Positions 8,672 through 48,468 of a stretch of DNA of 64,000 bases are shown piece by piece. The notes under the pieces were generated by a model. That model had not been told where the DNA came from. It searched no databases and saw only the letters and a list, made by a program, of their open reading frames with translations. The number at the start of each line of letters is the position of its first letter. Positions within the stretch are counted from its first letter, which is position 1. The position numbers and the translations under genes were made by a program. Source of the DNA: a phage; the NCBI GenBank assembly GCA_033664045.1, contig GCA_033664045.1_3674.1; one strand, given 5' to 3'.

Positions 8672-9433
8672 TTGAAATTTATCTACAAAGAACACTACCA
8701 CAAAGGTGTTGTGTGGAGTCTATTTGACGGGTCTGGTGGTGCAGTCATTGACTGGGCAAAAGCTGGATATCTGTGCCTGTGCTTTAATGCAGAAGGTGCT
8801 GATCACGGCAGCTATGCAGAGGTGATAACCGATCATCCCAACATTCACTACGTGGATTATTGGATTGACCCATGGTTCCCTCAGGAAACTTTTTGCATGT
8901 ACCCAGCTCCAGACTTTATTCTTGCATTTCCTCCGTGCACGCATTTAGCGGTATCAGGTGCCGCACATTTTAAGAAAAAGCTGGCTAAGGACCCCATGAT
9001 CCAAATTAATGCTGTAAAGGATGCTCGGGTTGCGGAAGAACTGGGAGAGATTTACGATTGCCCGTGGCATGTAGAGAATCCTGTTGGTGTTATGTCCACA
9101 CTGTGGCGCAAACCTGATTACCGTTTTCATCCTTCTGACTATGGCGGGTATTTACCGGAGGATGATGTAAACCCCTGGTTTCCTGAATTTATAGCTCCAC
9201 GTGATGCCTATCCAAAAATAACTTGCGGCTGGATAGGTAATGGATTTATAATCCCGGCCACAAAACCTGTCCCGCAAATAGTTGACGCGGTTAGCGGGTA
9301 TTCCATGCAACACGCCAAGCTGGGTGGAAAGAGTGCAAGAACGAAGATGATCCGAAGCCTTACACCACGTGGCTGGGCAAAAGCCGTATTCTTAGCAAAC
9401 GAGCCTGTAGTAAGGAGAAGGGCCAATGGTTGA
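8672..9433 (+). CDS. DNA (cytosine-5)-methyltransferase-like protein
   Basis: TTG start after AGGAG; C5-MTase-like motifs LFDGSGG (motif I), FPPCTHLAVSG (motif IV-like, PCT not PCQ), VENPVG (motif VI-like); short, no obvious TRD. Confidence 0.45.
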   Translation: MKFIYKEHYHKGVVWSLFDGSGGAVIDWAKAGYLCLCFNAEGADHGSYAEVITDHPNIHYVDYWIDPWFPQETFCMYPAPDFILAFPPCTHLAVSGAAHFKKKLAKDPMIQINAVKDARVAEELGEIYDCPWHVENPVGVMSTLWRKPDYRFHPSDYGGYLPEDDVNPWFPEFIAPRDAYPKITCGWIGNGFIIPATKPVPQIVDAVSGYSMQHAKLGGKSARTKMIRSLTPRGWAKAVFLANEPVVRRRANG

Positions 9434-10097
9434 CTGGAGCAAGTATTTCACCTACAGTGACGGCAAACTGTTCTGGGCGTACACTGCAAAAGCCGGAAGG
9501 GGCAGGGTTATACATTACGCAGGTGAGGAGGCCACAGGTACAGATAAAAATGGCTATAGAGTGATATATGTGTCAGGTGTTGGGAGTGTTCGTAGGCATA
9601 GAATAGTTTGGGAGATGCATTACGGGGAGATACCCGAAGGACTTGTTGTGCGGCACAAGAACGACATAGCAGGCGATGATAGGGTAGAGAACTTAGTCCT
9701 AGGTACACAGGGCGATAATGCACGAGACATGATCTACAGTGACAAACTGAGCATTAACAATACCTCAGGGTGTCGAGGTGTACGCTACCATAAAGGCATA
9801 AAAAGATGGATTGCATCTGTTGGAGACATATACTTAGGATGTTTTAAGACAAAAGAGGATGCAATTGCATGCAGAAAGTTATGGGAGAAGGGAAAATTCG
9901 TCCCGCAAGAGTTGGATGTTAGAAACACTAGCGGTGTAACAGGAGTGTTCTATGTGCCGAGCTCTGGAAGGTGGAGAGTAAGAGTGCAAAGCGGCAAAAA
10001 GAGAAAGAGCTATGGCACTTACAATACTTTAGAAGAAGCAAAAGCTGTAAGAGATAGAGTGATGAAAGAGATTGAGGAGTTTAAAGATGGGGAATAA
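9426..10097 (+). CDS. HNH homing endonuclease with AP2 DNA-binding repeats
   Basis: HNH core RRHRIVWEMHYGEIPEGLVVRHKNDIAGDDRVENL; two AP2-like repeats SGCRGVRYHKGIKRWIASV and SGVTGVFYVPSSGRWRVRV. Confidence 0.75.
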   Translation: MVDWSKYFTYSDGKLFWAYTAKAGRGRVIHYAGEEATGTDKNGYRVIYVSGVGSVRRHRIVWEMHYGEIPEGLVVRHKNDIAGDDRVENLVLGTQGDNARDMIYSDKLSINNTSGCRGVRYHKGIKRWIASVGDIYLGCFKTKEDAIACRKLWEKGKFVPQELDVRNTSGVTGVFYVPSSGRWRVRVQSGKKRKSYGTYNTLEEAKAVRDRVMKEIEEFKDGE

Positions 10098-22947: not shown

Positions 22948-22984
22948 TACTTGAAAATTCCTGGCATATCAAGTATAAGGGGGA

Positions 22985-23440
22985 TTTCTAAAATGGATTT
23001 CCTCCTTTTGATATTTCACCGGGCTGGATATTTTAAAATTCTTAGAAAATCAGAAAATGGATCGAAAACTAAAATGGATTTTTCAGAGTAGGCGCGACAA
23101 GCTGAATAACTCATCCTATCGTTTGCACCATATTCCAGGCCACAATTACAGATTTCCAGCACATGCTCCCACCCTTCTACTAGAACTTCCTCCACTTACC
23201 CTTTACCTTCTATGGTAACAATCTAACCACTATCTTGAAGTTGCGGTGCAGCTTTCCAGGTACTCGATCTACTTTTCATTTCAGGGCTTGGATTTTCTGA
23301 AAATTTTTCTCGATAAATTTCTCAGTACTCGATCTGTTTTTCGTTTTCTGAATCGGATTTTCTGGAAATCGTTCCGGATCTCGACCTGAAATTTTTGGGG
23401 ACGAAATCGATTTTTCGTTTTCAGAAATGGATTTTTAAAA
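22985..23440. repeat. non-coding tract with short direct repeats
   Basis: AAAATGGATTT x4, TACTCGATCT x2, GGATTTTCTG x2, TTTTTCGTTTTC x2. Confidence 0.5.
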
Positions 23441-23579
23441 TTTGTATATGGAAATATTTTAGGAGGTATTATTTTATATAGAATTGTCACGGTAGGTAAT
23501 TAGCATGCTAACTAAATTTATGAAATGCGAAAAGTTCTCATTTAGAATTTTGAATGATAATCATTCTCGTTTGCAGAAT

Positions 23580-23605
23580 AACGGGCACCCCCGGTGATTG
23601 TCTCC
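23580..23605. repeat. 26-bp repeat, left arm of perfect inverted repeat
   Basis: aacgggcacccccggtgattgtctcc; exact reverse complement at 32392-32417. Confidence 0.6.
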
Positions 23606-23712
23606 CGGCCCCTACTGCCCCGGCTTGTTATTATAGTAACACACAGGACAAAGAAAGCAAGAAGTTTTTTGCATAAATTTTTAGACGATAATGATAATCG
23701 TTCTCATTTTAT

Positions 23713-23741
23713 GCAGCGCCCATCCCCGGTGGTTGTCTCCC
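23713..23741. repeat. degenerate direct copy of the 23580 repeat
   Basis: gcagcgcccatccccggtggttgtctccc, preceded by gataatcgttctcatttt as the first copy is by gataatcattctcgttt. Confidence 0.4.
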
Positions 23742-23963
23742 TGTCACCGGTGCCTGCCGTCCTTTCGATATGTATATTGTGCCACCTGGCGGGGCCGCTG
23801 TCAACACTTTTCAAAAAATTTTTCTAACCTGATGCGCTAACCGCTGCAACCTGGCGGGGCCAGCCTGGCAGGACCTAACTGACCAGGTAGGAGAGAATGA
23901 AGGCTTGCAAACCTGGTGGGCCTATGCTATAGGATAGGTAACAATTGAAGAGGAGGTACAAAA

Positions 23964-24140
23964 ATGAAAGGTAATATAATCCCCCTGGAAAATGTAGCTA
24001 TTAATGACGCTGAGGCTATCGCCCTGGTTGAAAAGGCTATGGCGGGAGCGTTGGAACATAAAGAAGAGTACGAAAAAATGATGGTTAACCTGGCAGGGGC
24101 GGCGGCTGGAGAATTCTACCCAAAAAATAATTTTAACTGA
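23964..24140 (+). CDS. hypothetical small protein (58 aa)
   Basis: not in track (<60 aa); strong RBS AGGAGGT 7 nt before ATG; clean 59-codon frame. Confidence 0.5.
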   Translation: MKGNIIPLENVAINDAEAIALVEKAMAGALEHKEEYEKMMVNLAGAAAGEFYPKNNFN

Positions 24141-24224
24141 TGGTTGACAGCTCGTACAGTTATTGTTATTCTTATCCTCGCAAGGTGAACAACACCACAC
24201 CAATTAACAGAGAGGATAAAAATC

Positions 24225-24422
24225 ATGAACGCCTACGGAATCAAAGTACGTCGCAACACTCGCCAGGTGGTCACCGATCAAATGGTTTGCCGGGTGGATG
24301 TAACCATCAACAACGGGCAAGGCCTTTATAAATTCCGTCGCGGTCAGAGCTATACCCGGCAGCAGCTTAATCGTTGCGCCCTGACAAAAGGTCAGATAAA
24401 CCACTGGTTTAATAAAAAATAA
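24225..24422 (+). CDS. hypothetical protein
   Basis: RBS GAGAGGA; basic small protein. Confidence 0.5.
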   Translation: MNAYGIKVRRNTRQVVTDQMVCRVDVTINNGQGLYKFRRGQSYTRQQLNRCALTKGQINHWFNKK

Positions 24423-24486
24423 GTATTGACATATAGTCCGACACCAAATACACTAAAAGCACAAAAGACACTAAGAGGATAAAATC

Positions 24487-24885
24487 ATGAAAACCACTAC
24501 CTTTAATTTTGATAATGCGGACTTTTCTTTTTCTGATGTCAAGAACTGCCGCCGTGATCGTGGATTTTACAAGGCCTATAATCTGGTGGGCCTGGACGAT
24601 GACAATAATTTGCACGAAGTAGCTGAGATCCGGTATTATGCCGCCGCCAGCGGGAACACTCACTACTGCGTTTTTTGGATACACGACAACAAGAACAATA
24701 AGTACGGCTATACTGGAGGCAAGGCGAGCGGTCACGGTTATGATAAAGCCAACGCAGCACTTCAGAGCGCATTAAATGCTATGGGGATCACTGCCGACGG
24801 CTGGATCTACGAAGAAGAGTTTTTGTCGGCACTTGCTGACCGCCTGGGCTATAAAAAGCACATTGTAACATGCGCCCACGAATAA
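24487..24885 (+). CDS. hypothetical protein
   Basis: promoter TTGACA-N17-TACACT near 24426; RBS AAGAGGA. Confidence 0.55.
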   Translation: MKTTTFNFDNADFSFSDVKNCRRDRGFYKAYNLVGLDDDNNLHEVAEIRYYAAASGNTHYCVFWIHDNKNNKYGYTGGKASGHGYDKANAALQSALNAMGITADGWIYEEEFLSALADRLGYKKHIVTCAHE

Positions 24886-24967
24886 AAATTGTTGACACGC
24901 TGCAAAATTCAAGTAAACTGGGCACAAAAGGCGGGAATGTTTCCCGCCAACATAAAGGAAAAAGATC

Positions 24968-25372
24968 ATGAATAAGAACGTACGCCGCATCATGAACGAA
25001 CTGGCAAACGATGAAAAAATTATTGATATGCATTTGGTCAACATTTGCCGCCGTTGTGTAACATACAACAACCGCGCCGCAAAAGCGCGTGAGATGAACG
25101 CAAAAGGCACCTTAAAGCCATTCCAGGTGGTGGTAAAGGCCATTAAAGATGTAACTAATACGGCAAACCAGGTACAGGGGAACACCAACGAGAGTACCAA
25201 TATTGATCCGTCTTACGTAATGAAACGGATCCGGACTTGCAAGAATAAAGAGCAGGTGTATAACGTCATAGATTGGCTGGACTCCCTGGGCGATGTGGTT
25301 TACAATAGGTTTTCTGCAGCTATTGAGATTCAGTTAGACAGGTTGGACGGGAAAGTACTAAAAACTTACTGA
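24968..25372 (+). CDS. hypothetical protein
   Basis: promoter TTGACA-N16-TAAACT near 24893; leader hairpin ggcgggaatgtttcccgcc; RBS AAAGGAA. Confidence 0.55.
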   Translation: MNKNVRRIMNELANDEKIIDMHLVNICRRCVTYNNRAAKAREMNAKGTLKPFQVVVKAIKDVTNTANQVQGNTNESTNIDPSYVMKRIRTCKNKEQVYNVIDWLDSLGDVVYNRFSAAIEIQLDRLDGKVLKTY

Positions 25373-25373
25373 G

Positions 25374-25420
25374 TTTATTTTTAGATGGCCTTGACTTCAG
25401 GGCCATCAATAAAGTAAACT
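25374..25420 (+). repeat. 47-nt repeated hairpin element, copy 1
   Basis: tttatttttagatggccTTGACTtcagggccatcaataaagtaaact; stem tggcc/ggcca with TTGACT in loop. Confidence 0.5.
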
Positions 25421-25452
25421 AGTCTCAACTAAGCGAAAAAGGGGGCTTTAAG

Positions 25453-25572
25453 ATGAGCACTACACGCCAATACACAAAGGTAACTATTATCGTTTGCGTT
25501 GTCGGTTACATCCTGGCGCAAATGTTAATGAGTAGCGCCAACAGTTTTGCAAAATTTTTCTTAAATTTTTAA
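25453..25572 (+). CDS. hypothetical small hydrophobic protein (39 aa)
   Basis: not in track; RBS AAGGGGG before ATG; VTIIVCVVGYILAQMLM hydrophobic core. Confidence 0.4.
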   Translation: MSTTRQYTKVTIIVCVVGYILAQMLMSSANSFAKFFLNF

Positions 25573-25651
25573 TTGACAAGCTAACCCAAATCGGTATACT
25601 TAAACACGTAAACGGGAAAACTTCCCAGAACACACAAAAGGAGAAAACACC

Positions 25652-25993
25652 ATGACTACTATGACCGCCACAGAAAAAGCTATGCAGATCGCCGCGCTGA
25701 AAAAACAGATCGCAGACCTTGAGAACAAGATCGATAACTTTGAAATCGACGAGGACAAGTACGACGAAAACTATGACGAATGGTTAGACGAGATCTACGG
25801 CGAAATTATGATCGGAAACATTTCTTTTCTTCCGTCGCGTATCCTCAAGGAGCTGGATCCTATCGCTTACCGCTGCGGATTTAGCGACTACATCGACAGC
25901 TTGGATATTGAGGACGATGAAGAGTACCAAGAATTACAGACAGAGCTCGAAGAAGTGAAAGAAGAGCTTGCAGAACTGGAAGAAAACGAGTAA
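25652..25993 (+). CDS. hypothetical highly acidic protein
   Basis: promoter TTGACA-N16-TATACT; RBS AAGGAGA; roughly 30 percent D+E with coiled-coil-like C-terminus. Confidence 0.55.
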   Translation: MTTMTATEKAMQIAALKKQIADLENKIDNFEIDEDKYDENYDEWLDEIYGEIMIGNISFLPSRILKELDPIAYRCGFSDYIDSLDIEDDEEYQELQTELEEVKEELAELEENE

Positions 25994-25995
25994 AA

Positions 25996-26042
25996 TTTAT
26001 TTTTAGATGGCCTTGACTCCAGGGCCATCAATAAAGTAAACT
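25996..26042 (+). repeat. 47-nt repeated hairpin element, copy 2
   Basis: tttatttttagatggccTTGACTccagggccatcaataaagtaaact. Confidence 0.5.
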
Positions 26043-26083
26043 TTATACTGTTAACACTGAACTAATGCATAGGAGTTAAAACC

Positions 26084-26329
26084 ATGGCAGCACTAATCAC
26101 CAAATATTATGCCCCTACCAACACCAAAAGCGCCCGTATCATGGTAAAAGGCTTCGGACGTAAAAAGGTTTACACCTGGGATTATGCCTTAGACACAGAA
26201 GACAACTACACCAACGCGATGACCGATTTTATTAATGATCTGAACACGCGGATCTTGACAAATTATCAAATTACCGATATTGCCTATATAGGGGAAGGCG
26301 GGATCTGTTTTGTCGGTATCGTCAAATAG
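26084..26329 (+). CDS. hypothetical protein
   Basis: RBS AGGAG. Confidence 0.55.
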   Translation: MAALITKYYAPTNTKSARIMVKGFGRKKVYTWDYALDTEDNYTNAMTDFINDLNTRILTNYQITDIAYIGEGGICFVGIVK

Positions 26330-26406
26330 GCTGTTTTTTCGGTGGTCCTGGTAGCAGGGCCATCTATAAAGATAGTTTATCAACACAATGAAAGGAGAAA
26401 GTACAC

Positions 26407-26760
26407 ATGATCAGCGGGGCTAGTTTTATTATTGGCGCTATTGCTACGGCTTTAATTGTAAACAAGATCCAGGATAAAAAAGAAAGAGGAAGTACCGCCC
26501 TTGCAGAATATCCATTTTGGACATTCAACGATAACGAAGATTATATTATAAAGTATAAAAATAAAGAAGGCGACCAAGTAACACCGCGACCGATCCCGGC
26601 TTACAAAATGCAGGAAACACTATACCGCCTGGAGGCGGGGGGCGCAAAAATTGTGGACTTTTGGGGATACGACCACACAGATCAGGAAGTTATAAAGCGC
26701 CGTATCCGGGCTATTCAGGCCAATATTGAAGTTAGCAAGGGTGGAATATATGAAAATTAA
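26407..26760 (+). CDS. hypothetical protein
   Basis: RBS AAAGGAGA. Confidence 0.55.
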   Translation: MISGASFIIGAIATALIVNKIQDKKERGSTALAEYPFWTFNDNEDYIIKYKNKEGDQVTPRPIPAYKMQETLYRLEAGGAKIVDFWGYDHTDQEVIKRRIRAIQANIEVSKGGIYEN

Positions 26761-26947
26761 TTTCGAGAAAATTGTAAAGCGCCCTCATGATTCCGAAGAG
26801 CTGCCAGAACGCCGACAGCGTAACAATAAACTGAATAAGCCAAAAAGATTTGGGAAGATCTGGCGGAATCATTATGATCGTAAATTGCCCGGCCTACTTT
26901 TGGAACGTGAACGACAGGCAGAACGATACCGCCATAAAGACAAATAA
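26750..26947 (+). CDS. hypothetical basic protein
   Basis: ATG at 26750 after AAGGGTGGA; overlaps upstream stop. Confidence 0.5.
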   Translation: MKINFEKIVKRPHDSEELPERRQRNNKLNKPKRFGKIWRNHYDRKLPGLLLERERQAERYRHKDK

Positions 26948-26955
26948 CAACCAAC

Positions 26956-26984
26956 GCCCCGCCATTGTGCGGGGCTTTTTATTT
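26956..26984 (+). terminator. rho-independent terminator
   Basis: gccccgccattgtgcggggc + TTTTTATTT. Confidence 0.6.
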
Positions 26985-27166
26985 CTATCCTACGAATAGC
27001 GCCCCTGGTTGGCCCTGTAAGCGCCAAAAAGGCCCCCACCTATGCAATCGCCCCCCTTTAACCTGAAAACATCGCCCAGGGCCGTTTTATGGCGTTAAAA
27101 ATATCATTGACATCGTCAACAGGTTAGCTATACTAACCACATCAAAGAGAGAAAGGAGTAAACGCC

Positions 27167-27427
27167 ATGCGTAAATTAAAAAATTTTGATAAAGTTGATG
27201 TTATCCTGAATAATTTTTACTACTGCAACAATAAGGCTATTTGGTGGCGTGATAGTTCCACCGATAAAGTCAAGGCGCGCTTTCTTCAGGGGCACTGGCA
27301 AGGCCGCCCAGTGATTAAAATCATGGGGCAATTGGTAGCGTTTAAAAATTGCCGCCGTGTTGATGACGTTGAGGAGATTTTAAACATTTTGCGCCACAAT
27401 AATTTAAAAAATAGTGTTGACAAGTAA
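27167..27427 (+). CDS. hypothetical protein
   Basis: promoter TTGACA-N16-TATACT near 27104; RBS AAAGGAG. Confidence 0.55.
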   Translation: MRKLKNFDKVDVILNNFYYCNNKAIWWRDSSTDKVKARFLQGHWQGRPVIKIMGQLVAFKNCRRVDDVEEILNILRHNNLKNSVDK

Positions 27428-27444
27428 ATCTCAATAAGTATAAT
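27417..27444 (+). promoter_or_regulatory. sigma70-like promoter TTGACA-N16-TATAAT followed by leader hairpin
   Basis: gTTGACAagtaaatctcaataagTATAATtaaacacacaGGCGGGaaaacttCCCGCC. Confidence 0.55.
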
Positions 27445-27501
27445 TAAACACACAGGCGGGAAAACTTCCCGCCACTAACAAAGAAAACAGGAGAAAATAT
27501 C

Positions 27502-28125
27502 ATGACCACCGTTAACATTACCACAGGTTACAATTTATCTTTCGACGTGCTGACCGATGAACAAAAAGAAAAAGCTATTGAAATGGTCCGCGAAAGAGAA
27601 GAACACAGCGGGGATAACTTTTTTGCAGAAAGTGTAATTGAAGACTATAAAGAACATATCTTTCCAGAGTATGGCCTTGAAGATACCAAGGTACATTGGT
27701 CCGGATTTTGGTGCCAGGGCGACGGCGCATCAATCAGTGCGGAAAACGTGGATTTAGAAAAATTCTTGCGTAAAGTAAAGGCCCTTACCAAGTTCCGATC
27801 AATTCGTCACTTGTTCGGCACAATGCACGATGGCGAACTATCCGCAAGCGTTGAGCGTGATCCATATAGCCGCTATAGTCACGAAAACACTGTAAGCGGG
27901 TACATCGATACTACATGGCTAGACCTGACCGCCAAACAAGAAAATAAAGTGGAAGATCTGGAAGAGCTGATCACCGAGACGGTACGGGAGCTATCCCGCA
28001 AGGTTTACGTAGACCTGGAGCAAGCTTATCTTGAACAATTTACTACCGAAAACCTGATCGGCCTTATCGAGGCCAATGATTGGCGGTTTGATGTGGATGA
28101 ATATGGCGAGATGACTTTTTCATAA
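27502..28125 (+). CDS. hypothetical acidic protein
   Basis: RBS CAGGAGA; 207 aa. Confidence 0.55.
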   Translation: MTTVNITTGYNLSFDVLTDEQKEKAIEMVREREEHSGDNFFAESVIEDYKEHIFPEYGLEDTKVHWSGFWCQGDGASISAENVDLEKFLRKVKALTKFRSIRHLFGTMHDGELSASVERDPYSRYSHENTVSGYIDTTWLDLTAKQENKVEDLEELITETVRELSRKVYVDLEQAYLEQFTTENLIGLIEANDWRFDVDEYGEMTFS

Positions 28126-28214
28126 ATAAAGTGTTGCAATAACCTAAAAACCTGCTATATTAAAACTCAAGGGGCAAGACGTTTGCCCCCACACAAAACA
28201 AAGAGGAAAACATC

Positions 28215-28595
28215 ATGAAAAACACCACTAAAGCTATTGACACCGTTATGTTTAACCTGGTTACCTTTCGCGAGGATATGAAAGATCTTCCGCGTGAAAC
28301 AGTGTGCGACCATATCGAAAACTATCGCAAACTAATCAAAGAGTTGCCTTTAAAACGTGATCAGTATGCGGCTAACGCCATGCTTAATGCCATGATCAAA
28401 AAGATGATCCAGTGTGATTTAACTCTGGCCTATGACTATGCGGGTGGTCGTTTTGCAGTATACAATCAGCCCGTGCCTGGTATGAGCACCACCGAAGAAT
28501 TGCACGCGCTCAATCTAAAACAAGACGTGTGGGATAGTATGCCTCGCGTGGTGGTATGGGTAGAAAGCGGAAAGATTTACGGCGATAATTTTTAA
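28215..28595 (+). CDS. hypothetical protein
   Basis: promoter TTGCAA-N16-TATATT; leader hairpin ggggcaagacgtttgcccc; RBS AAAGAGGA. Confidence 0.55.
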   Translation: MKNTTKAIDTVMFNLVTFREDMKDLPRETVCDHIENYRKLIKELPLKRDQYAANAMLNAMIKKMIQCDLTLAYDYAGGRFAVYNQPVPGMSTTEELHALNLKQDVWDSMPRVVVWVESGKIYGDNF

Positions 28596-28659
28596 TCAGG
28601 TAACAGGCGGCATATTTGCCGCCTTATTGTTAATCAGAACTGTAAAAGAGGTACATAGA

Positions 28660-29031
28660 ATGGAATTTATTATTTTGGCTGTACTGGTTGCCTTGTTTAA
28701 CGCCTGGATCGCTGGCAAGATGGGAAGATCCGCCTTTTTATGGTTTATTATATCTATTTTCCTGGGGGTGGTTGCAACTATTGTATTGGTTATCCTTGCA
28801 ATTGTTGACAAGGGGAATAATAGAAAGGGTAAAGTATTTTCAGACCTGTACGACGCTCAAACGTTTGTCAACGCCTATTATAGTGATCTCCCAGTCTCCC
28901 TACGTTGCAGCCTTGCACAACAGGTTTTCGATGAAGCTAAAACCAGAGATCACGCCCATGAGATTTGTTTAACTGAGGCGGATCGCTTATTTGAGAGGAA
29001 TAGAAAATATGTGGGCCAGCCGTTTAAATAA
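28660..29031 (+). CDS. hypothetical membrane protein
   Basis: ATG at 28660 after AAAAGAGG; two hydrophobic helices. Confidence 0.5.
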   Translation: MEFIILAVLVALFNAWIAGKMGRSAFLWFIISIFLGVVATIVLVILAIVDKGNNRKGKVFSDLYDAQTFVNAYYSDLPVSLRCSLAQQVFDEAKTRDHAHEICLTEADRLFERNRKYVGQPFK

Positions 29032-29250
29032 TACCACGTTAATTAATCCGCTTAGTGAAGATTTGAGGCCAGCCGCCTGGCGGGATGGATTCAATAATGA
29101 AAGCTTTATTTTCAGGCCTGATCTTAAGGAATTTTATAACAATGGATCGGACAACGACAGAGATAATTTTTCTTGTAATGTGCGTGGTGATAATACTCCT
29201 GGGGGCCATTGCAAACCACGTAACTGCTAACAGGGGGAAGGGGGGAGACG

Positions 29251-29370
29251 ATGACAACCAAGGATAAGCCCCGCACCGATAAGGCGCGCCGTGCTATGGT
29301 ATGGCTTGAGATCATCGCCCTTGAAATATTGTTAGGTGTAGGGATGTATTTTATCGCTGTAAGTAACTGA
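29251..29370 (+). CDS. hypothetical small membrane-anchored protein (39 aa)
   Basis: not in track; G-rich RBS before ATG; basic N-terminus then hydrophobic helix; terminator follows. Confidence 0.35.
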   Translation: MTTKDKPRTDKARRAMVWLEIIALEILLGVGMYFIAVSN

Positions 29371-29374
29371 TAAC

Positions 29375-29415
29375 GGCCCCCGATCCCTGGGGGCCTAACT
29401 TTTTAAAATTTTTTT
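29375..29415 (+). terminator. rho-independent terminator
   Basis: ggcccccgatccctgggggcc followed by long T-tract. Confidence 0.55.
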
Positions 29416-29513
29416 CTCCTTGGGTGTTGCAATCCGATCCAGAATATGGATAATAACAATCAACGGGGAGACACTCCCCACCACACAGACAAAATTCCAA
29501 AAGGAGAAACAAA

Positions 29514-29714
29514 ATGAGCAACAATATCCGCGTTATTAACTTCAAAAAAGAAGAAAAAATTGCTGTGCTGGTTGATGGTCAAGAAATCTTCAAGGGCGAC
29601 TATGAAGATCATCAAACGGCGATTAGTATCACTCGCGTGATCGGTTACCATAATTTCTACCCCCAAGGCGCTGAGGCAGCAGTTAAACGAATCAAAGAGA
29701 TTGTAGGCCTGTAA
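29514..29714 (+). CDS. hypothetical protein
   Basis: promoter TTGCAA-N17-ATAATA; leader hairpin ggggagacactcccc; RBS AAAGGAGA. Confidence 0.5.
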   Translation: MSNNIRVINFKKEEKIAVLVDGQEIFKGDYEDHQTAISITRVIGYHNFYPQGAEAAVKRIKEIVGL

Positions 29715-29716
29715 AA

Positions 29717-29762
29717 TTTATTTTTAGATGGCCTTTACTTCAGGGCCATCAATAAAGTAAAT
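29717..29762 (+). repeat. 47-nt repeated hairpin element, copy 3
   Basis: tttatttttagatggcctttacttcagggccatcaataaagtaaat. Confidence 0.5.
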
Positions 29763-29805
29763 TTAAACCCTGTTAAAATAATCAGTGCAAAAAGGAGTAA
29801 TGATC

Positions 29806-30105
29806 ATGTTTATACCCGCCAATAATCTTTATTTCTTTGATGGTCAGATCGTAGACGGTGTGGAAGTGGAGATCACTGGGTGCCCTGGTGGTCAGGCTAT
29901 GACTTTTCGGAATAATGCCTTTGATGATTCTCATATCGTTATGAGAATGGAAGTTACAAAGCTGGACGACAAGAAAACGCTTATTGACTATTCCGTGAAA
30001 GATCATCCAGACTACCACATGATCTATGGTGATTTGTGTATTGTTGACCGTGACAAGGTGGGCGGCATTGTGATCGCTATTGTGAACGATGTTTTCTCTG
30101 AATAA
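29806..30105 (+). CDS. hypothetical protein
   Basis: ATG at 29806 with AAGGAG RBS (track start 29785). Confidence 0.5.
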   Translation: MFIPANNLYFFDGQIVDGVEVEITGCPGGQAMTFRNNAFDDSHIVMRMEVTKLDDKKTLIDYSVKDHPDYHMIYGDLCIVDRDKVGGIVIAIVNDVFSE

Positions 30106-36222: not shown

Positions 36223-36438
36223 TCAGTCCAGCGGTTCATCCTCTACTTCACTGAAATCAATGTTCATGGTCTCTTCCCAACCATCGATCTCAGCACAAGA
36301 GTGGAGTTCTTTAGGGTTTACTCCCAAAGCCTCAGCAACAGAGTCTATATTTAACACCTCTGGCAGGTATGATTCATCGAATTCAAGGTAAATCAGGCCA
36401 CGAGTGTTGTCAGCTCCACCAAATATTTCTATCTTCAT
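36223..36438 (-). CDS. hypothetical small acidic protein
   Basis: last ORF of minus-strand block; MKIEIF N-terminus shared with family. Confidence 0.5.
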   Translation of the reverse strand: MKIEIFGGADNTRGLIYLEFDESYLPEVLNIDSVAEALGVNPKELHSCAEIDGWEETMNIDFSEVEDEPLD

Positions 36439-36559: not shown

Positions 36560-36865
36560 TCATAGTCTACCACCTCTGAACTCCTCGTGCTCAGGCATAA
36601 TAGAGAACCAGATATCTACGATGTCTTCCCACGTTAAGTCATCAGCCTCAGGATCTACCTGGAGCGAAGATGGAGAATCTTCAGAATCGAAGTTTTCCTC
36701 TTTAACTGGCTCATCCAAGGGACATATAGTCACTCCTTTGGATGTCTCTTCAGATGCATGTGTGTTGATCATGTTCCACCAGTGAGTATTCCTGCAACAG
36801 CCGCTATGGACGTAATGATCATCAGGATCACCACTAAAACTTCGGACAATGTTTTCATTGTGCAC
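36560..36865 (-). CDS. hypothetical protein
   Basis: co-directional minus-strand ORF. Confidence 0.45.
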   Translation of the reverse strand: MHNENIVRSFSGDPDDHYVHSGCCRNTHWWNMINTHASEETSKGVTICPLDEPVKEENFDSEDSPSSLQVDPEADDLTWEDIVDIWFSIMPEHEEFRGGRL

Positions 36866-39203: not shown

Positions 39204-39532
39204 TAGTCTTCCTCCAGGTTCAAAGGTCCTAAGATTTCATATGCCAGATTAGAAGTTACCAGAGGATCTTCTGCATCTTTAGTATTATACCACCCGTGAA
39301 TAACCAGAGTCCCACTCTGTTTCATATCTAACTGGAACTGTTCTGCAGTTTCCTCATCCATCTCTAAGATCTCCATAAGGTATTTGATGTTAGGGAGGTA
39401 TGCAGCTGTTACAGTCCCCTCTACCAGACCTTCAGGCCAACCTACATCTGGATGACAAGTAGGAACCAGGTTGGTCAGCTTAATGGTGTACGCTTTTTCT
39501 GCACGAGCCTTCAGTAACGGGTCAATCTTCAT
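39203..39532 (-). CDS. hypothetical protein
   Basis: abutting start/stop with neighbours. Confidence 0.5.
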   Translation of the reverse strand: MKIDPLLKARAEKAYTIKLTNLVPTCHPDVGWPEGLVEGTVTAAYLPNIKYLMEILEMDEETAEQFQLDMKQSGTLVIHGWYNTKDAEDPLVTSNLAYEILGPLNLEED

Positions 39533-39882
39533 TATTCGTCCTCCTCTTCGGTGCCTGCTTCCAGTAATAAGTTAAGAATATCTTCTGCACAAGGCTCATA
39601 GAACTCTTGGCCTTCATTATCGATGATTTTGTAGTCATCTCCACGAATAATCAGTGGATCACTCTCAAAATTATCGAGACCTTTAACAACGACAACACGA
39701 TCGATTGCCATCATTGTAAGAACTTTATCGACATTTTCCTCTGCTACACCATACTGCAGCAGAATGTCTTTGGTAGGAGGAACAGCATCCACAACAACAC
39801 CGTTACCAAAACCTTCCGGAAGTTTAGCTAAAATATCTTCCGGAACCGCATTCACATCAAAACCGGTAATTTCTACTTTCAT
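39532..39882 (-). CDS. hypothetical small acidic protein (family C)
   Basis: MKVEITG N-terminus, acidic C-terminus EEEDE. Confidence 0.5.
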   Translation of the reverse strand: MKVEITGFDVNAVPEDILAKLPEGFGNGVVVDAVPPTKDILLQYGVAEENVDKVLTMMAIDRVVVVKGLDNFESDPLIIRGDDYKIIDNEGQEFYEPCAEDILNLLLEAGTEEEDE

Positions 39883-45085: not shown

Positions 45086-45547
45086 CTACTTAAACAACAG
45101 TTCAAGATAGTGCAAAATTAACAGAAGTTGAATTACGCCTAGCACAACGGCGAGTATGTTAATCTTAGAATCAAAAAACTTCTTAACTTTTACCCTAAAA
45201 GGCTCTTTAATGTCCTTTACGATCCTATTTATAGATGATTTCATATCCCTGATTACCATCCTAAACATTAGAGACGGATCCTCCTTCTCTGTAACAGAAT
45301 CGAAAACATACTCTCTTCGGTCATAAGGCCCTCCAGATCTGCGTATTAACCTCTCCACAGAGACCTCGTACGACACACCTGTAACGTAATCATCTATGAC
45401 AAGTAGTGACGGGTCTTTATCATCCAAGGGTATTAAAGTTATCTTTCCAGATTTTGTTAAAATTTCTCCTTTTTCAAGCAAGGTGTACCAATGCTCTCTA
45501 CCAAGATTGTTGAGGCACGTTTTTACATATTTAACAAACATCGTCAC
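45086..45547 (-). CDS. hypothetical protein
   Basis: C-terminal hydrophobic helix. Confidence 0.5.
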   Translation of the reverse strand: MTMFVKYVKTCLNNLGREHWYTLLEKGEILTKSGKITLIPLDDKDPSLLVIDDYVTGVSYEVSVERLIRRSGGPYDRREYVFDSVTEKEDPSLMFRMVIRDMKSSINRIVKDIKEPFRVKVKKFFDSKINILAVVLGVIQLLLILHYLELLFK

Positions 45548-45747
45548 CCCTCATCGCACGTCTGATATAACCATTCTATGAAATCTTGATACCACTCTCC
45601 CTCTGAGCGCTCCGTAGGCCAATAATCTTCCCCCTCTCTTGCATTAAAATCTGAGTATTCAACTTTCCACTCCTTTACCAGCTCGTGGAGAAGGTTTTCG
45701 GCCTGTTCTAAGGATTTATTTTTTGTCATTACTGTCCCCTTTTTCAA
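45544..45747 (-). CDS. hypothetical protein
   Basis: ATGA-type overlap. Confidence 0.45.
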   Translation of the reverse strand: MKKGTVMTKNKSLEQAENLLHELVKEWKVEYSDFNAREGEDYWPTERSEGEWYQDFIEWLYQTCDEG

Positions 45748-47653: not shown

Positions 47654-47968
47654 CTACCAAGTTACTGTCAAGTAGGCAACAGTGTTATTTTTCTCTGGAG
47701 AGATGCCAACAACATCTACCTGCAGACCTCCTGCCCTCAAATCCCCAACAATATGCGGGAAGTAATCTGAGAGATGCGAGGGTAGATTTATCGAAAATCC
47801 GCATCCCAGAAAGCCTGCTAACGCTTTATTTTGTATCTCCCCTACAATCGCATCATAAATGGAGTTAAGCTCGTCAGGGAGCGTTACAGGACGTTTTAGC
47901 GCTAACTGGTGTAATTTGTCCTTAGCACTCATTTTCATTTCAGGTCTACCTCTGGGGGTGCCAACCAC
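47654..47968 (-). CDS. hypothetical protein
   Basis: co-directional ORF. Confidence 0.45.
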   Translation of the reverse strand: MVGTPRGRPEMKMSAKDKLHQLALKRPVTLPDELNSIYDAIVGEIQNKALAGFLGCGFSINLPSHLSDYFPHIVGDLRAGGLQVDVVGISPEKNNTVAYLTVTW

Positions 47969-48468
47969 ATAAACGGCGGCAAGTCTAAACGGTTTTTCTT
48001 ATCCCACACAAAATATGCATATGCTTGCCCGTCAGTTCTGCCATTTGATTGAAATGATGGACGCTTAGATATTGTGATCACAGTGGTAGGTGCATTATCA
48101 AGCCACCATTCAAATCTGGCTTTGCTTTCCAGAAAATTAAGACGCAAAAGCATAATAACTACGTCAGCATCTTTCAACGCCTTGTCTACGAACTCACGAG
48201 CCAGACTGTACGGTGGGTTGGTGATAATACAGTCAACATGGTTGTATTCTGTATTCAGATAGTCAACACCTTCTTGGATTTCTCCCCATGCAGATCCTAA
48301 CGGCATACGGGAGTAGAACACACCTGAGGCACTATTCCTGCAAGGCTCTAAGTAGGTCCAGTCCTCTGGGAACGGAATAAGGTCATACAGCCCTTCTGCA
48401 CACCACTCCGGTGTCACATACTCATCGTATGCGTTACGTTGTTCATCAGGTTTTCTAGCACAAGTCAT
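47935..48468 (-). CDS. DNA N6-adenine methyltransferase (small phage Dam-like)
   Basis: catalytic motif IITNPPYSLA (NPPY) in a 177-aa protein. Confidence 0.65.
   Translation of the reverse strand: MTCARKPDEQRNAYDEYVTPEWCAEGLYDLIPFPEDWTYLEPCRNSASGVFYSRMPLGSAWGEIQEGVDYLNTEYNHVDCIITNPPYSLAREFVDKALKDADVVIMLLRLNFLESKARFEWWLDNAPTTVITISKRPSFQSNGRTDGQAYAYFVWDKKNRLDLPPFMWLAPPEVDLK

What the first reader, a model, noticed from the sequence alone, without database searches (positions are those of the whole stretch)
25652..28125. Strongly acidic early proteins as DNA-mimic candidates
ORF 25652-25993 is roughly 30 percent Asp+Glu with a C-terminal acidic coiled-coil-like stretch (DIEDDEEYQELQTELEEVKEELAELEENE). 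ORF 27502-28125 is also acidic. Acidic small early proteins are the usual form of anti-restriction and anti-defence DNA mimics.
Basis: inference. Interest (0 to 1): 0.45.

Follow-up and report, generated by a model that had tools for sequence, protein, structure and literature searches.

The report
Two acidic early phage proteins
Two unrelated genes of unknown function in an rV5-like E. coli phage are probably switched on right after infection; one is as negatively charged as the classic DNA-mimic Ocr and stays a fair but unproven mimic candidate, and the other belongs to a very large uncharacterised family carried on the first DNA that phages and plasmids send into a cell.

Summary
The window comes from an rV5-like Vequintavirus (about 95% identical to FV3 and ECP2303). 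Both ORFs exist exactly as described.

**ORF A (25652-25993)**
- It has 31% Asp+Glu and net charge -26. It is the most acidic protein of the window and of a whole related genome.
- It has a conserved core of about 45 residues, clamped by two heptad-repeat helices.
- Relatives are early genes in phage PAK_P3 (by experiment) and PM16 (by position).

**ORF B (27502-28125)**
- It is only moderately acidic (21% Asp+Glu, rank 14 of 117 window genes).
- It is a globular domain with invariant GF-QGDGA and Y-HENT motifs and a conserved basic patch.
- Its family has over 7,000 sequence clusters, no Pfam entry and no solved structural match.
- The family sits in phage terminal repeats, in plasmid modules that resemble leading regions, and in giant polyvalent proteins.

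**Shared features and tests**
- The two genes co-occur only in rV5-like phages. Each has a near-consensus sigma-70 promoter followed by a shared 5'-UTR hairpin.
- Neither is related to Ocr, ArdA, KlcA, T3 SAMase or CbeA/YeeU.
- Published plating data show rV5-like phages escape type I restriction but not type II or III. phi92-like relatives that lack both genes escape it too, so this allows the hypothesis without pointing to these genes.

DNA mimicry is plausible for A (about 0.3) and unlikely for B.

The parts
25573..25600 (+). Sigma-70-type promoter of ORF A (TTGACA-16-TATACT, 11 of 12), followed by the conserved TAAACAC
   Evidence: Promoter scan, sequence, shared pattern search, alignment of upstream regions
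25613..25627 (+). Weak 5'-UTR hairpin CGGGAAAACTTCCCA (5 bp, -5.9 kcal/mol), a degenerate copy of the hairpin upstream of ORF B
25652..25993 (+). ORF A, 113 aa, PHROG 9294, function unknown; the most acidic protein of the phage
25667..25735 (+). ORF A residues 6-28: N-terminal heptad-repeat helix, roughly charge-neutral, variable in sequence across the family
25751..25900 (+). ORF A residues 34-83: the conserved family core (helix, beta-hairpin, two helices). Near-invariant residues are Y41, S62, E67, D69, P70, I71, A72, Y73, C75 and D79. Helix 34-49 carries the repeat [DE][DE]x[aromatic].
   Evidence: Many homologs consist of this core alone, at 60-80 aa.
25904..25990 (+). ORF A residues 85-113: acidic C-terminal heptad helix (16 of 29 residues are Asp or Glu) that pairs with the N-terminal helix
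27417..27444 (+). Sigma-70-type promoter of ORF B (TTGACA-16-TATAAT, 12 of 12). The -35 hexamer overlaps the last codons of the upstream ORF.
27455..27473 (+). 5'-UTR hairpin GGCGGGAAAACTTCCCGCC (8 bp, -14.6 kcal/mol, z = -5.4). No T-run follows, so it is not a + strand terminator.
27502..28125 (+). ORF B, 207 aa, PHROG 5162, function unknown; a globular alpha/beta domain from a very large family found on mobile genetic elements
27700..27732 (+). ORF B residues 67-77, SGFWCQGDGAS: the invariant G68, F69, Q72, G73, D74, G75, A76 beta-hairpin motif
   Evidence: Alignments A2 and A3, model
27874..27891 (+). ORF B residues 125-130, YSHENT: the second conserved motif (Y125, H127, E128, T130)
24892..24948 (+). 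A third copy of the same promoter-plus-hairpin cassette (TTGACA-16-TAAACT, then GGCGGGAATGTTTCCCGCC), upstream of the unrelated ORF 24968-25372. It shows that ORF A and ORF B belong to one regulatory class.

Best explanation
These are two unrelated accessory genes that are transcribed independently and most likely act on host components at the very start of infection. Each sits behind its own near-consensus host sigma-70 promoter, followed by a shared 5'-UTR stem-loop and a GGAGA ribosome-binding site. Unmodified host RNA polymerase could therefore express both as soon as the DNA enters (inferred).

ORF A is a small, elongated, very acidic protein. It has a conserved core of about 45 residues flanked by an N-terminal and an acidic C-terminal heptad helix that zip together. 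Its most likely mode of action is stoichiometric: it would act as a polyanionic decoy that occupies the nucleic-acid-binding surface of a host protein. The target is unknown. A type I restriction enzyme is one possibility among several.

ORF B is a globular alpha/beta domain with no fold match among solved structures. It belongs to a very large family that mobile elements place on the first DNA to enter a cell: phage terminal repeats, conjugative-plasmid modules, and giant polyvalent proteins. Its invariant polar motif cluster suggests that it binds or modifies one specific host protein or small molecule, rather than imitating DNA.

What is shown: the genes exist and are under purifying selection, the charge is conserved across both families, the fold predictions are confident, the family distributions are as described, and there is no relationship to known families. 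What is inferred: the early timing in this phage, the decoy mechanism, and the targets.
For: **Promoters and shared cassette**
- The promoters and hairpins are described.

**ORF A**
- It ranks first for acidity in the window and in the Bas59 genome.
- Acidity is conserved in 71 homologs.
- Seventeen alignment columns are at least 70% acidic, including the repeat on helix 34-49.
- PAK_P3 gp86 is a family member (HMM E = 8e-11) and lies inside the experimentally defined early region gp74-gp112 (PMC4933390).
- PM16 gp02 is a family member (E = 2e-12) and is the second gene from the left end of a T7-like genome.

**ORF B**
- The family has 7,123 representatives of 50%-identity clusters at E <= 1e-3.
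- It has no Pfam, NCBIfam or PDB sequence match.
- Its motifs are invariant across the family.
- It occurs as a domain in a 1,479-aa protein with an N-terminal Fic/Doc domain and in other giant proteins.
- It is gene 6 inside the 20-kb terminal repeat of phage Muenster and gene 9 at the left end of Bacillus phage Hobo.
- In Rhodobacterales plasmids it sits in a module of ssb, RadC, DUF6878 and Strawberry-notch genes.

**Independence and selection**
- A and B co-occur only in rV5-like phages, and neither has a conserved neighbour.
- dN/dS is 0.05-0.11.
Against: - No experiment addresses either protein, and no transcript data exist for rV5-like phages, so 'early' rests on consensus promoter matches and on homologs in other phages.
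- Ten of ORF A's residues are near-invariant, and seven of them (Y41, S62, P70, I71, A72, Y73, C75) are not acidic. This fits a specific protein-protein interface at least as well as a generic polyanion.
- ORF B's conserved Gln, Asp, His, Glu, Arg and Tyr residues could form an enzyme active site, which would make 'binder' the wrong word.
- ORF B is broken or partly deleted in some isolates (magaca, Alma, ECML-10), so it is dispensable on laboratory hosts.
Confidence: 0.5

Rival explanations
1. One reading: ORF A, and possibly ORF B, is an Ocr/ArdA-type DNA mimic that blocks type I restriction-modification enzymes.
For: - ORF A matches Ocr in length and charge density, and it has an early-type promoter.
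- Raw BASEL data (PMC8594841 S1 Data and S5 Table) show that Vequintavirus Bas56-59, with 9-15 EcoKI sites and 4-6 EcoCFT_I sites, plate at EOP 0.06-1.0 on both type I systems.
- The same phages are restricted about 1e-4 to 1e-3 by EcoRI and give no plaques on EcoRV or on the type III system EcoCFT_II.
- In the same assays, siphoviruses with 3-7 EcoKI sites drop to 1e-4 to 1e-5.
- I recounted 15 EcoKI and 5 EcoAI-type sites in Bas59 and found no ArdA, Ocr, T3 SAMase or KlcA homolog anywhere in its genome. An unassigned anti-type-I function is therefore plausible, and ORF A is the most Ocr-like protein the phage has.
Against: - phi92-like Bas60-62 (12-14 EcoKI sites, 7-9 EcoCFT_I sites) and the FelixO1-like Bas63 escape type I restriction just as well.
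- Bas60 has no family A or family B member in the 100 kb searched, so the phenotype is not tied to these genes.
- hhalign gives 0.2% probability for A against Ocr, 1.2% for A against ArdA and 0.5% for B against ArdA.
- There is no Pfam or PDB sequence hit.
- ORF B has a conserved basic patch (R90, K93, R99, R119, R162, R166) and is only moderately acidic.
Confidence: 0.17
2. ORF B is an enzyme, not a binder or mimic. Its invariant Gln72, Asp74, His127, Glu128, Arg162 and Tyr169 would form an active site that modifies or degrades a host protein, nucleotide signal or nucleic acid early in infection.
For: - Polar residues are invariant across more than 60 diverse sequences that share only 25-40% identity overall.
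- The domain occurs next to a Fic/Doc domain in a polyvalent protein. By established knowledge (PMC5512222), polyvalent proteins are largely strings of catalytic effector domains.
Against: - The motif could equally be a ligand-binding or protein-binding pocket.
Confidence: 0.2
3. ORF A is a regulatory or scaffolding coiled-coil protein, for example a modulator of host or phage transcription. Its charge would be incidental to a specific protein-protein interface in the conserved core.
For: - The conserved part of the family is the core, not the acidic tail, and many members are the core alone at 60-80 aa.
- The near-invariant residues are mostly aromatic, hydrophobic or Cys/Pro.
- The terminal helices are canonical heptad zippers.
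Against: - Net charge of -20 to -35 is kept in every full-length member, and even the 64-aa core-only proteins carry -11. This is hard to call incidental.
- There is no DNA-binding or known regulatory domain.
Confidence: 0.2
4. ORF B is an antitoxin, as RefSeq ('antitoxin of toxin-antitoxin stability system') and one phage record ('YeeU-like antitoxin') name its relatives.
For: - These names appear on Rhodobacterales plasmids and on phage Muenster gp006.
- In plasmids the gene follows RadC and a small DUF gene, which resembles by position the E. coli CP4 cluster RadC-DUF987-YeeU-YeeV.
Against: - hhalign of the family profile against E. coli CbeA/YeeU gives 0.2% probability.
- phmmer with YfjZ finds nothing.
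- No NCBIfam model stands behind the RefSeq name.
- No toxin partner is conserved among 61 phage neighbourhood groups and 20 bacterial ones.
- The adjacent toxin-antitoxin pairs on the Celeribacter plasmid are complete without it.
Confidence: 0.03

Closest known systems
Ocr (T7 gp0.3), DNA-mimic inhibitor of type I R-M and BREX
   Same: ORF A is almost the same length (113 aa against 117 aa). It has the same Asp+Glu fraction and net charge per residue (31% and -0.23, against 29% and -0.24), is helical, ends in an acidic tail, and is driven by a host-type promoter. A family member is the second gene from the left end of a T7-like phage.
   Different: There is no sequence or profile similarity (hhalign 0.2%; no Pfam or PDB sequence hit). 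The architecture differs: a conserved helix-hairpin-helix core plus an antiparallel heptad zipper. Ocr is not among the top 60 structural matches. No anti-restriction activity has been shown.
ArdA (Tn916 Orf18 / plasmid ArdA), DNA-mimic anti-restriction protein of conjugative elements
   Same: ArdA is an acidic protein encoded on the first-entering (leading) DNA of mobile elements. ORF B's family occupies comparable positions on plasmids and in phage terminal repeats.
   Different: Profile-profile comparison with a profile of nine genuine ArdA sequences gives 0.5% (B) and 1.2% (A) probability. A short motif resemblance to a single ArdA sequence (4.7%) disappeared once the real profile was used. 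ORF B is compact and globular with a basic patch, whereas ArdA is an elongated three-domain mimic.
Domains of polyvalent proteins and leading-region or terminal-repeat 'first-entry' genes (Iyer et al. 2017, PMC5512222; Samuel and Burstein 2024, PMC11541004)
   Same: ORF B's domain is found both as a solo gene and embedded in giant multi-domain proteins with Fic/Doc. It is also found near ssb, RadC and Strawberry-notch genes on conjugative plasmids, and inside phage terminal repeats. This is the distribution typical of counter-defence and establishment functions.
   Different: The domain is not one of the named LPD or Pfam domains. No activity is known, and in this rV5-like phage it is a stand-alone gene inside a long run of small early-type genes.
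CbeA/YeeU type IV antitoxin (the name databases give to ORF B relatives)
   Same: Only the gene position downstream of a RadC-like gene in some elements.
   Different: There is no homology (hhalign 0.2%), the size differs (about 200 aa against 122 aa), and there is no partner toxin.
T4-type promoter-early stem-loop cassettes (PeSL; recalled from the literature, not checked here)
   Same: Small early genes are each preceded by a strong sigma-70 promoter associated with a conserved stem-loop. Here the elements are TTGACA-16-TATAMT-TAAACAC plus the hairpin CGGGAA-NNN-TTCCCG, and separately the repeat GATGGCCTTGACTYCAGGGCCATC.
   Different: The sequences are unrelated to the T4 elements. Whether these cassettes mediate gene shuffling here was not tested.

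Membership tests
Ocr (Pfam 'ocr' family; T7 gp0.3) | Sequence or profile homology to Ocr | tested here: not met
   Pfam scan at E <= 0.1 gives no hit. PDB sequence search with the single sequence and with the profile at E <= 10 does not list Ocr. hhalign of A1 against Ocr gives 0.2%. phmmer with Ocr against all window ORFs and all Bas59 ORFs finds nothing.
Ocr (Pfam 'ocr' family; T7 gp0.3) | Very high negative charge density in a small helical protein | tested here: met
   ORF A has 31% Asp+Glu and net -0.23 per residue, against 29% and -0.24 for Ocr. ORF B has only 21% and -0.11.
Ocr (Pfam 'ocr' family; T7 gp0.3) | Surface carboxylates arranged like the phosphates of bent B-DNA on an elongated dimer | not testable with these tools
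The only indirect hints are the 4-residue acidic repeat on helix 34-49 and 16 acidic residues among positions 85-113.
Ocr (Pfam 'ocr' family; T7 gp0.3) | Inhibits type I R-M in vivo | tested here: inconclusive
   Published EOP data show that phages carrying ORF A escape EcoKI and EcoCFT_I. Relatives lacking ORF A and ORF B escape them too. No gene-level experiment exists.
ArdA (PF07275) | Sequence or profile homology to ArdA | tested here: not met
   Pfam gives no hit. hhalign against a profile of nine genuine ArdAs gives 0.5% for B and 1.2% for A. The ArdA HMM finds nothing in the window, in Bas59 or in Bas60.
ArdA (PF07275) | Elongated three-domain fold | tested here: not met
CbeA/YeeU/YfjZ antitoxins (the database name of ORF B relatives) | Homology to YeeU family proteins | tested here: not met
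   hhalign of A3 against E. coli CbeA gives 0.2%. phmmer with YfjZ gives no hit. The PDB profile search does not list YeeU structures.
CbeA/YeeU/YfjZ antitoxins (the database name of ORF B relatives) | Adjacent cognate toxin gene | tested here: not met
   No neighbour family is conserved in more than 5 of 61 phage groups or 5 of 20 bacterial groups.
PHROG 9294 (ORF A) and PHROG 5162 (ORF B), both 'unknown function' | Full-length match to the family profile | tested here: met
   E = 5e-54 over residues 1-113 for ORF A and E = 2e-89 over residues 4-205 for ORF B.
Early (host RNA polymerase-dependent) phage genes | Own sigma-70 consensus promoter | tested here: met
   11 of 12 and 12 of 12 hexamer matches with 16-nt spacers, 50-60 nt upstream of the start codons. 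The region has 26 promoter-like sites against 13.8 expected.
Early (host RNA polymerase-dependent) phage genes | Transcript present in the first minutes of infection | not testable with these tools
   No rV5-like transcriptome was found. The only data are by homology: PAK_P3 gp86 lies in the RNA-seq-defined early region.
Polyvalent-protein / first-entry module domains (ORF B) | The same domain occurs solo and inside giant multi-domain proteins of mobile elements, and on the DNA that enters first | tested here: met
   P0145 is 1,479 aa with Fic/Doc plus the B domain at residues 777-958. L075 encodes a 1,190-aa protein and L066 a 781-aa protein with the domain. The domain is in the Muenster terminal repeat, at the left end of Hobo in two copies per record, and in the plasmid ssb-RadC-DUF6878 module.

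The most novel reading that the evidence does not exclude
ORF A founds a new, widespread family of early DNA-mimic decoys. The family is found in rV5-like, PAK_P3-like, T7-like Proteus, Vibrio and marine phages. It would explain the unassigned type I restriction resistance of Vequintavirus. ORF B's family, with more than 7,000 sequence clusters and absent from Pfam, would be a new-fold counter-defence domain that phages, plasmids and polyvalent proteins all deliver first into the cell.
Probability: 0.15. Interest if true: 0.75.

Novelty: new member of a known kind. Interest (0 to 1): 0.45.

Why it matters
rV5-like phages are among the most commonly isolated E. coli phages and are candidates for phage therapy, yet nearly all of their roughly 100 small early genes have no known function.

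- **ORF A.** If it is a mimic or decoy, it would be a new anti-host family shared by many phage lineages. It could also explain why these phages ignore type I restriction despite carrying 9-15 target sites. The BASEL authors did not comment on this pattern in their raw data.
- **ORF B.** Whatever it does, it marks a very large family with no Pfam entry and no structural match. Its placement on first-entering DNA of phages and plasmids makes it a strong target for anti-defence screens.
- **Database names.** The work also shows that two names in circulation ('antitoxin of toxin-antitoxin stability system' and 'YeeU-like antitoxin') have no detectable basis.

Tried and rejected
- **Known-family searches.** Pfam, NCBIfam, PADLOC and PDB sequence searches of both ORFs and their neighbours gave only sub-threshold coiled-coil noise for ORF A (GvpG, SlyX, SbcC, LmuB) and nothing for ORF B.
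- **A linked pair?** I tested whether A and B form a linked pair and rejected it: they co-occur only in rV5-like loci among 170 loci.
- **Conserved neighbours.** None was found for either family.
- **ArdA lead.** hhalign gave 4.7% on the GFxSQGDGA motif against ArdA's GKYNEGELVGAW. The signal vanished against a real ArdA profile.
- **YeeU/antitoxin naming.** Rejected.
- **PM16 gp01.** I tested whether it is a family B member sitting next to the family A gene gp02. It is not.
- **The BASEL sentence.** I first took the statement that Vequintavirinae 'lack any effective protection' against R-M as evidence against the hypothesis. The raw EOP tables showed that this holds only for type II and III systems. 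I then checked whether type I escape tracks with ORF A or B. It does not, because Bas60-62 lack both.
- **Literature.** Searches for PHROG and VOG identifiers and for an rV5 transcriptome found nothing useful.
- **RNA families.** An Rfam scan of 22-30 kb found nothing.
- **Not possible here.** Surface electrostatics could not be computed because no model coordinates are available.
Full report
**Identity of the window.** The region 24-30 kb is 94-96% identical to more than 100 rV5-like Vequintavirus genomes (FV3, ECP2303, isim, rV5). Every gene in it is annotated 'hypothetical'. Upstream on the + strand lie rIIA/rIIB, a Dda-like helicase, a primase-helicase and the DNA polymerase. From about 36 kb onward the genes run on the - strand and include nucleotide-metabolism genes. 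The finding sits in a long run of small + strand genes.

**Observation.**
- Both ORFs are present as described.
- ORF A (25652-25993, 113 aa) has 31% Asp+Glu and net charge -26. It is the most acidic of 117 window ORFs (z = 3.2). Its ortholog is the most acidic protein of the entire Bas59 genome, at 31.9% against 25% for the next.
- ORF B (27502-28125, 207 aa) has 21% Asp+Glu and net charge -23. It ranks 14th of 117 (z = 1.3), so its composition is ordinary for this phage.
- Acidity is conserved across both families.
- dN/dS of 0.05-0.11 shows that both are real, constrained genes.

**ORF A anatomy.**
- Seventy-one homologs were found. The close ones are from rV5-like phages. The distant ones, at 40-55% identity, come from marine and other metagenomes.
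- What the family conserves is not the acidic tail. It is residues about 34-83 (YDxxLDExYG...SRxLKELDPIAYRCGFSDY), and many members are this core alone at 60-80 aa.
- The AlphaFold model (pLDDT 90.4) has an N-terminal helix (6-28), a helix (34-49), a beta-hairpin (52-59), two helices (61-83) and a C-terminal helix (90-111).
- Seventeen alignment columns are at least 70% acidic. Helix 34-49 carries the regular repeat ED-KY-DE-NY-DE-WL-DE-IY. This repeat would lay carboxylate pairs about 6 Å apart along one face of the helix. That is an inference, not a measurement.

**ORF B anatomy.**
- Homologs share the invariant residues G58, G68, F69, Q72, G73, G75, A76, Y125 and Y169. Near-invariant residues are D74, S77, H127, T130 and N192. 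There is also a conserved basic patch: R90, K93, R99, R119, R162 and R166.
- An exhaustive profile search finds 7,123 representatives of 50%-identity clusters.
- There is still no Pfam, NCBIfam or PDB sequence match, and no Pfam family recurs among 60 members.

**Where the families live.**
- Family A member PAK_P3 gp86 (HMM E = 8e-11) lies in the RNA-seq-defined early region gp74-gp112 (PMC4933390).
- Family A member PM16 gp02 (E = 2e-12) is the second gene from the left end of a T7-like Proteus phage, bracketed by its own terminators.
- Family B is in jumbo phages (PBECO4, RaK2, and Muenster gp006 inside the 20-kb terminal repeat), at the left end of Bacillus phage Hobo with two copies per record, and in Acinetobacter phages.
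- Family B is also found in many bacterial phyla.
- In Rhodobacterales plasmids it sits within a module of DUF932-like, RadC, DUF6878 and Strawberry-notch genes, downstream of ssb.
- It occurs as one domain of giant proteins, one of which has an N-terminal Fic/Doc domain.
- A and B co-occur only in rV5-like phages, and neither has a conserved neighbour. They are independent genes.
- ORF B is split or partly deleted in a few isolates (magaca, Alma, ECML-10), so it is dispensable in the laboratory.

**Regulation.**
- ORF A, ORF B and the unrelated ORF 24968 share one cassette: TTGACA-16-TATAMT-TAAACAC, then a hairpin CGGGAA-NNN-TTCCCG, then a GGAGA ribosome-binding site.
- The hairpin has 8 bp and -14.6 kcal/mol upstream of ORF B and ORF 24968. 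It is weaker (5 bp) upstream of ORF A.
- ORF B's promoter is a perfect 12 of 12 match.
- This supports immediate transcription by host RNA polymerase, which is an inference. No rV5 transcriptome was found.

**Known-family tests.**
- hhalign gives 0.2% for A against Ocr, 1.2% for A against a nine-sequence ArdA profile, 0.5% for B against the same ArdA profile, and 0.2% for B against CbeA/YeeU.
- A 4.7% hint between B's GFxSQGDGA motif and a single ArdA sequence disappeared with the real profile.
- The RefSeq name 'antitoxin of toxin-antitoxin stability system' has no NCBIfam model behind it. The 'YeeU-like' label on Muenster gp006 traces to a BLAST hit on an E. coli database protein that itself bears the YeeV-YeeU antitoxin name.

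**Restriction phenotype.**
- The BASEL paper says that Vequintavirinae 'lack any effective protection' against R-M. Its raw data are more specific.
- Bas56-59 have 9-15 EcoKI sites and 4-6 EcoCFT_I sites. They plate at EOP 0.06-1.0 on both type I systems. They are restricted about 1e-4 to 1e-3 by EcoRI and give no plaques on EcoRV or EcoCFT_II.
- In the same assays, Bas01 and Bas02 (3 and 7 EcoKI sites) fall to 1e-4 and 1e-5, while Bas03 (1 site) is unaffected.
- I recounted 15 EcoKI and 5 EcoAI-type sites in Bas59, and 8 and 3 in the window. I found no ArdA, Ocr, T3 SAMase or KlcA homolog in either.
- This is the phenotype an Ocr-like protein would give.
- However, phi92-like Bas60-62 (12-14 and 7-9 sites) and the FelixO1-like Bas63 behave the same way. 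Bas60 has no member of family A or B, or of any known anti-type-I family, in the 100 kb searched.
- The phenotype therefore allows the hypothesis but does not single out these genes.

**Verdict.**
- ORF A remains a fair, untested DNA-mimic or polyanion-decoy candidate. I put this at about 0.3, and at about 0.17-0.2 for type I restriction specifically.
- ORF B is unlikely to be a mimic (about 0.07). It is better described as a first-entry domain with a specific pocket that has no match among solved structures.
- Both belong to the known kind 'early phage anti-host accessory proteins', but to families with no characterised member.

Noticed in passing
window 24892-24967, 25573-25651, 27417-27501: Three otherwise unrelated small genes share a regulatory cassette: a near-consensus sigma-70 promoter, TAAACAC, a GC-rich 5'-UTR hairpin (CGGGAA-NNN-TTCCCG) and a GGAGA ribosome-binding site. 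This suggests a co-regulated early class with stabilised transcripts.
   Followed up: partly
window 25384-25407, 26006-26029, 29727-29750: An intergenic repeat, GATGGCCTTGACTYCAGGGCCATC, forms a hairpin with a TTGACT -35-like hexamer in its loop. It occurs three times against zero expected by chance and resembles T4 promoter-early stem-loop cassettes.
   Followed up: partly
window 22948-23963: A 1-kb gene-free stretch carries iteron-like direct repeats: 47-62-nt units at 23250, 23315 and 23389 spaced 65-74 nt apart, and 20-34-nt units about 136 nt apart at 23553-23754. There is no Rfam match. It could be an origin or a regulatory region.
   Followed up: partly
window 36223-36438(-), 36560-36772(-), 45544-45729(-), 39532-39882(-): Other small ORFs with 24-27% Asp+Glu. 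By composition alone they are equally valid 'acidic candidates', and all are more acidic than ORF B.
   Followed up: no
GenBank MG0656xx records (hits to window 24000-30000): Seventeen unannotated records named 'Campylobacter phage' are 94-98% identical to E. coli rV5-like phages. They are probably mislabelled or contaminants.
   Followed up: no
BASEL S1 Data / S5 Table (PMC8594841): Bas55-63: Large virulent myoviruses (Vequintavirus, phi92-like, FelixO1-like) with 9-15 EcoKI sites and 4-9 EcoCFT_I sites plate almost normally on both type I systems. Small siphoviruses with 3-7 sites are restricted 1e-2 to 1e-5. The paper attributes weak type I restriction to rare sites, which these numbers do not support. 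An unexplained anti-type-I mechanism, or several, seems to exist.
   Followed up: partly
P0192 (775 aa), P0175, P0251, L075:7140-10712, L066:7008-9353: In giant proteins the ORF B domain matches in two pieces, and in P0192 the pieces are in swapped order (profile positions 101-198 come before 11-89). This suggests tandem or circularly permuted copies.
   Followed up: no
window 25454-25573: A 39-aa ORF with one hydrophobic helix (MSTTRQYTKVTIIVCVVGYILAQMLMSSANSFAKFFLNF) lies just upstream of ORF A's promoter. It is annotated as a CDS in phage isim.
   Followed up: no
Database names of ORF A relatives (P0064, P0076, P0077; phage SSBI34): ORF A homologs are variously named 'gas vesicle protein GvpG', 'Zn-ribbon protein', 'SbcCD ATPase subunit' and 'SH3 domain protein'. 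All of these look like artefacts of coiled-coil or low-complexity matches.
   Followed up: partly
window 9426-10097(+), 47935-48468(-): By position in the syntenic Bas59 genome (not aligned directly), these ORFs appear to correspond to the Dcm-like C5-cytosine methyltransferase (bas59_0072) and one N6-adenine methyltransferase (bas59_0157). A second N6-adenine methyltransferase (bas59_0177) was not mapped to the window. Methylation could contribute to restriction evasion but is unlikely to cover two unrelated type I specificities.
   Followed up: no
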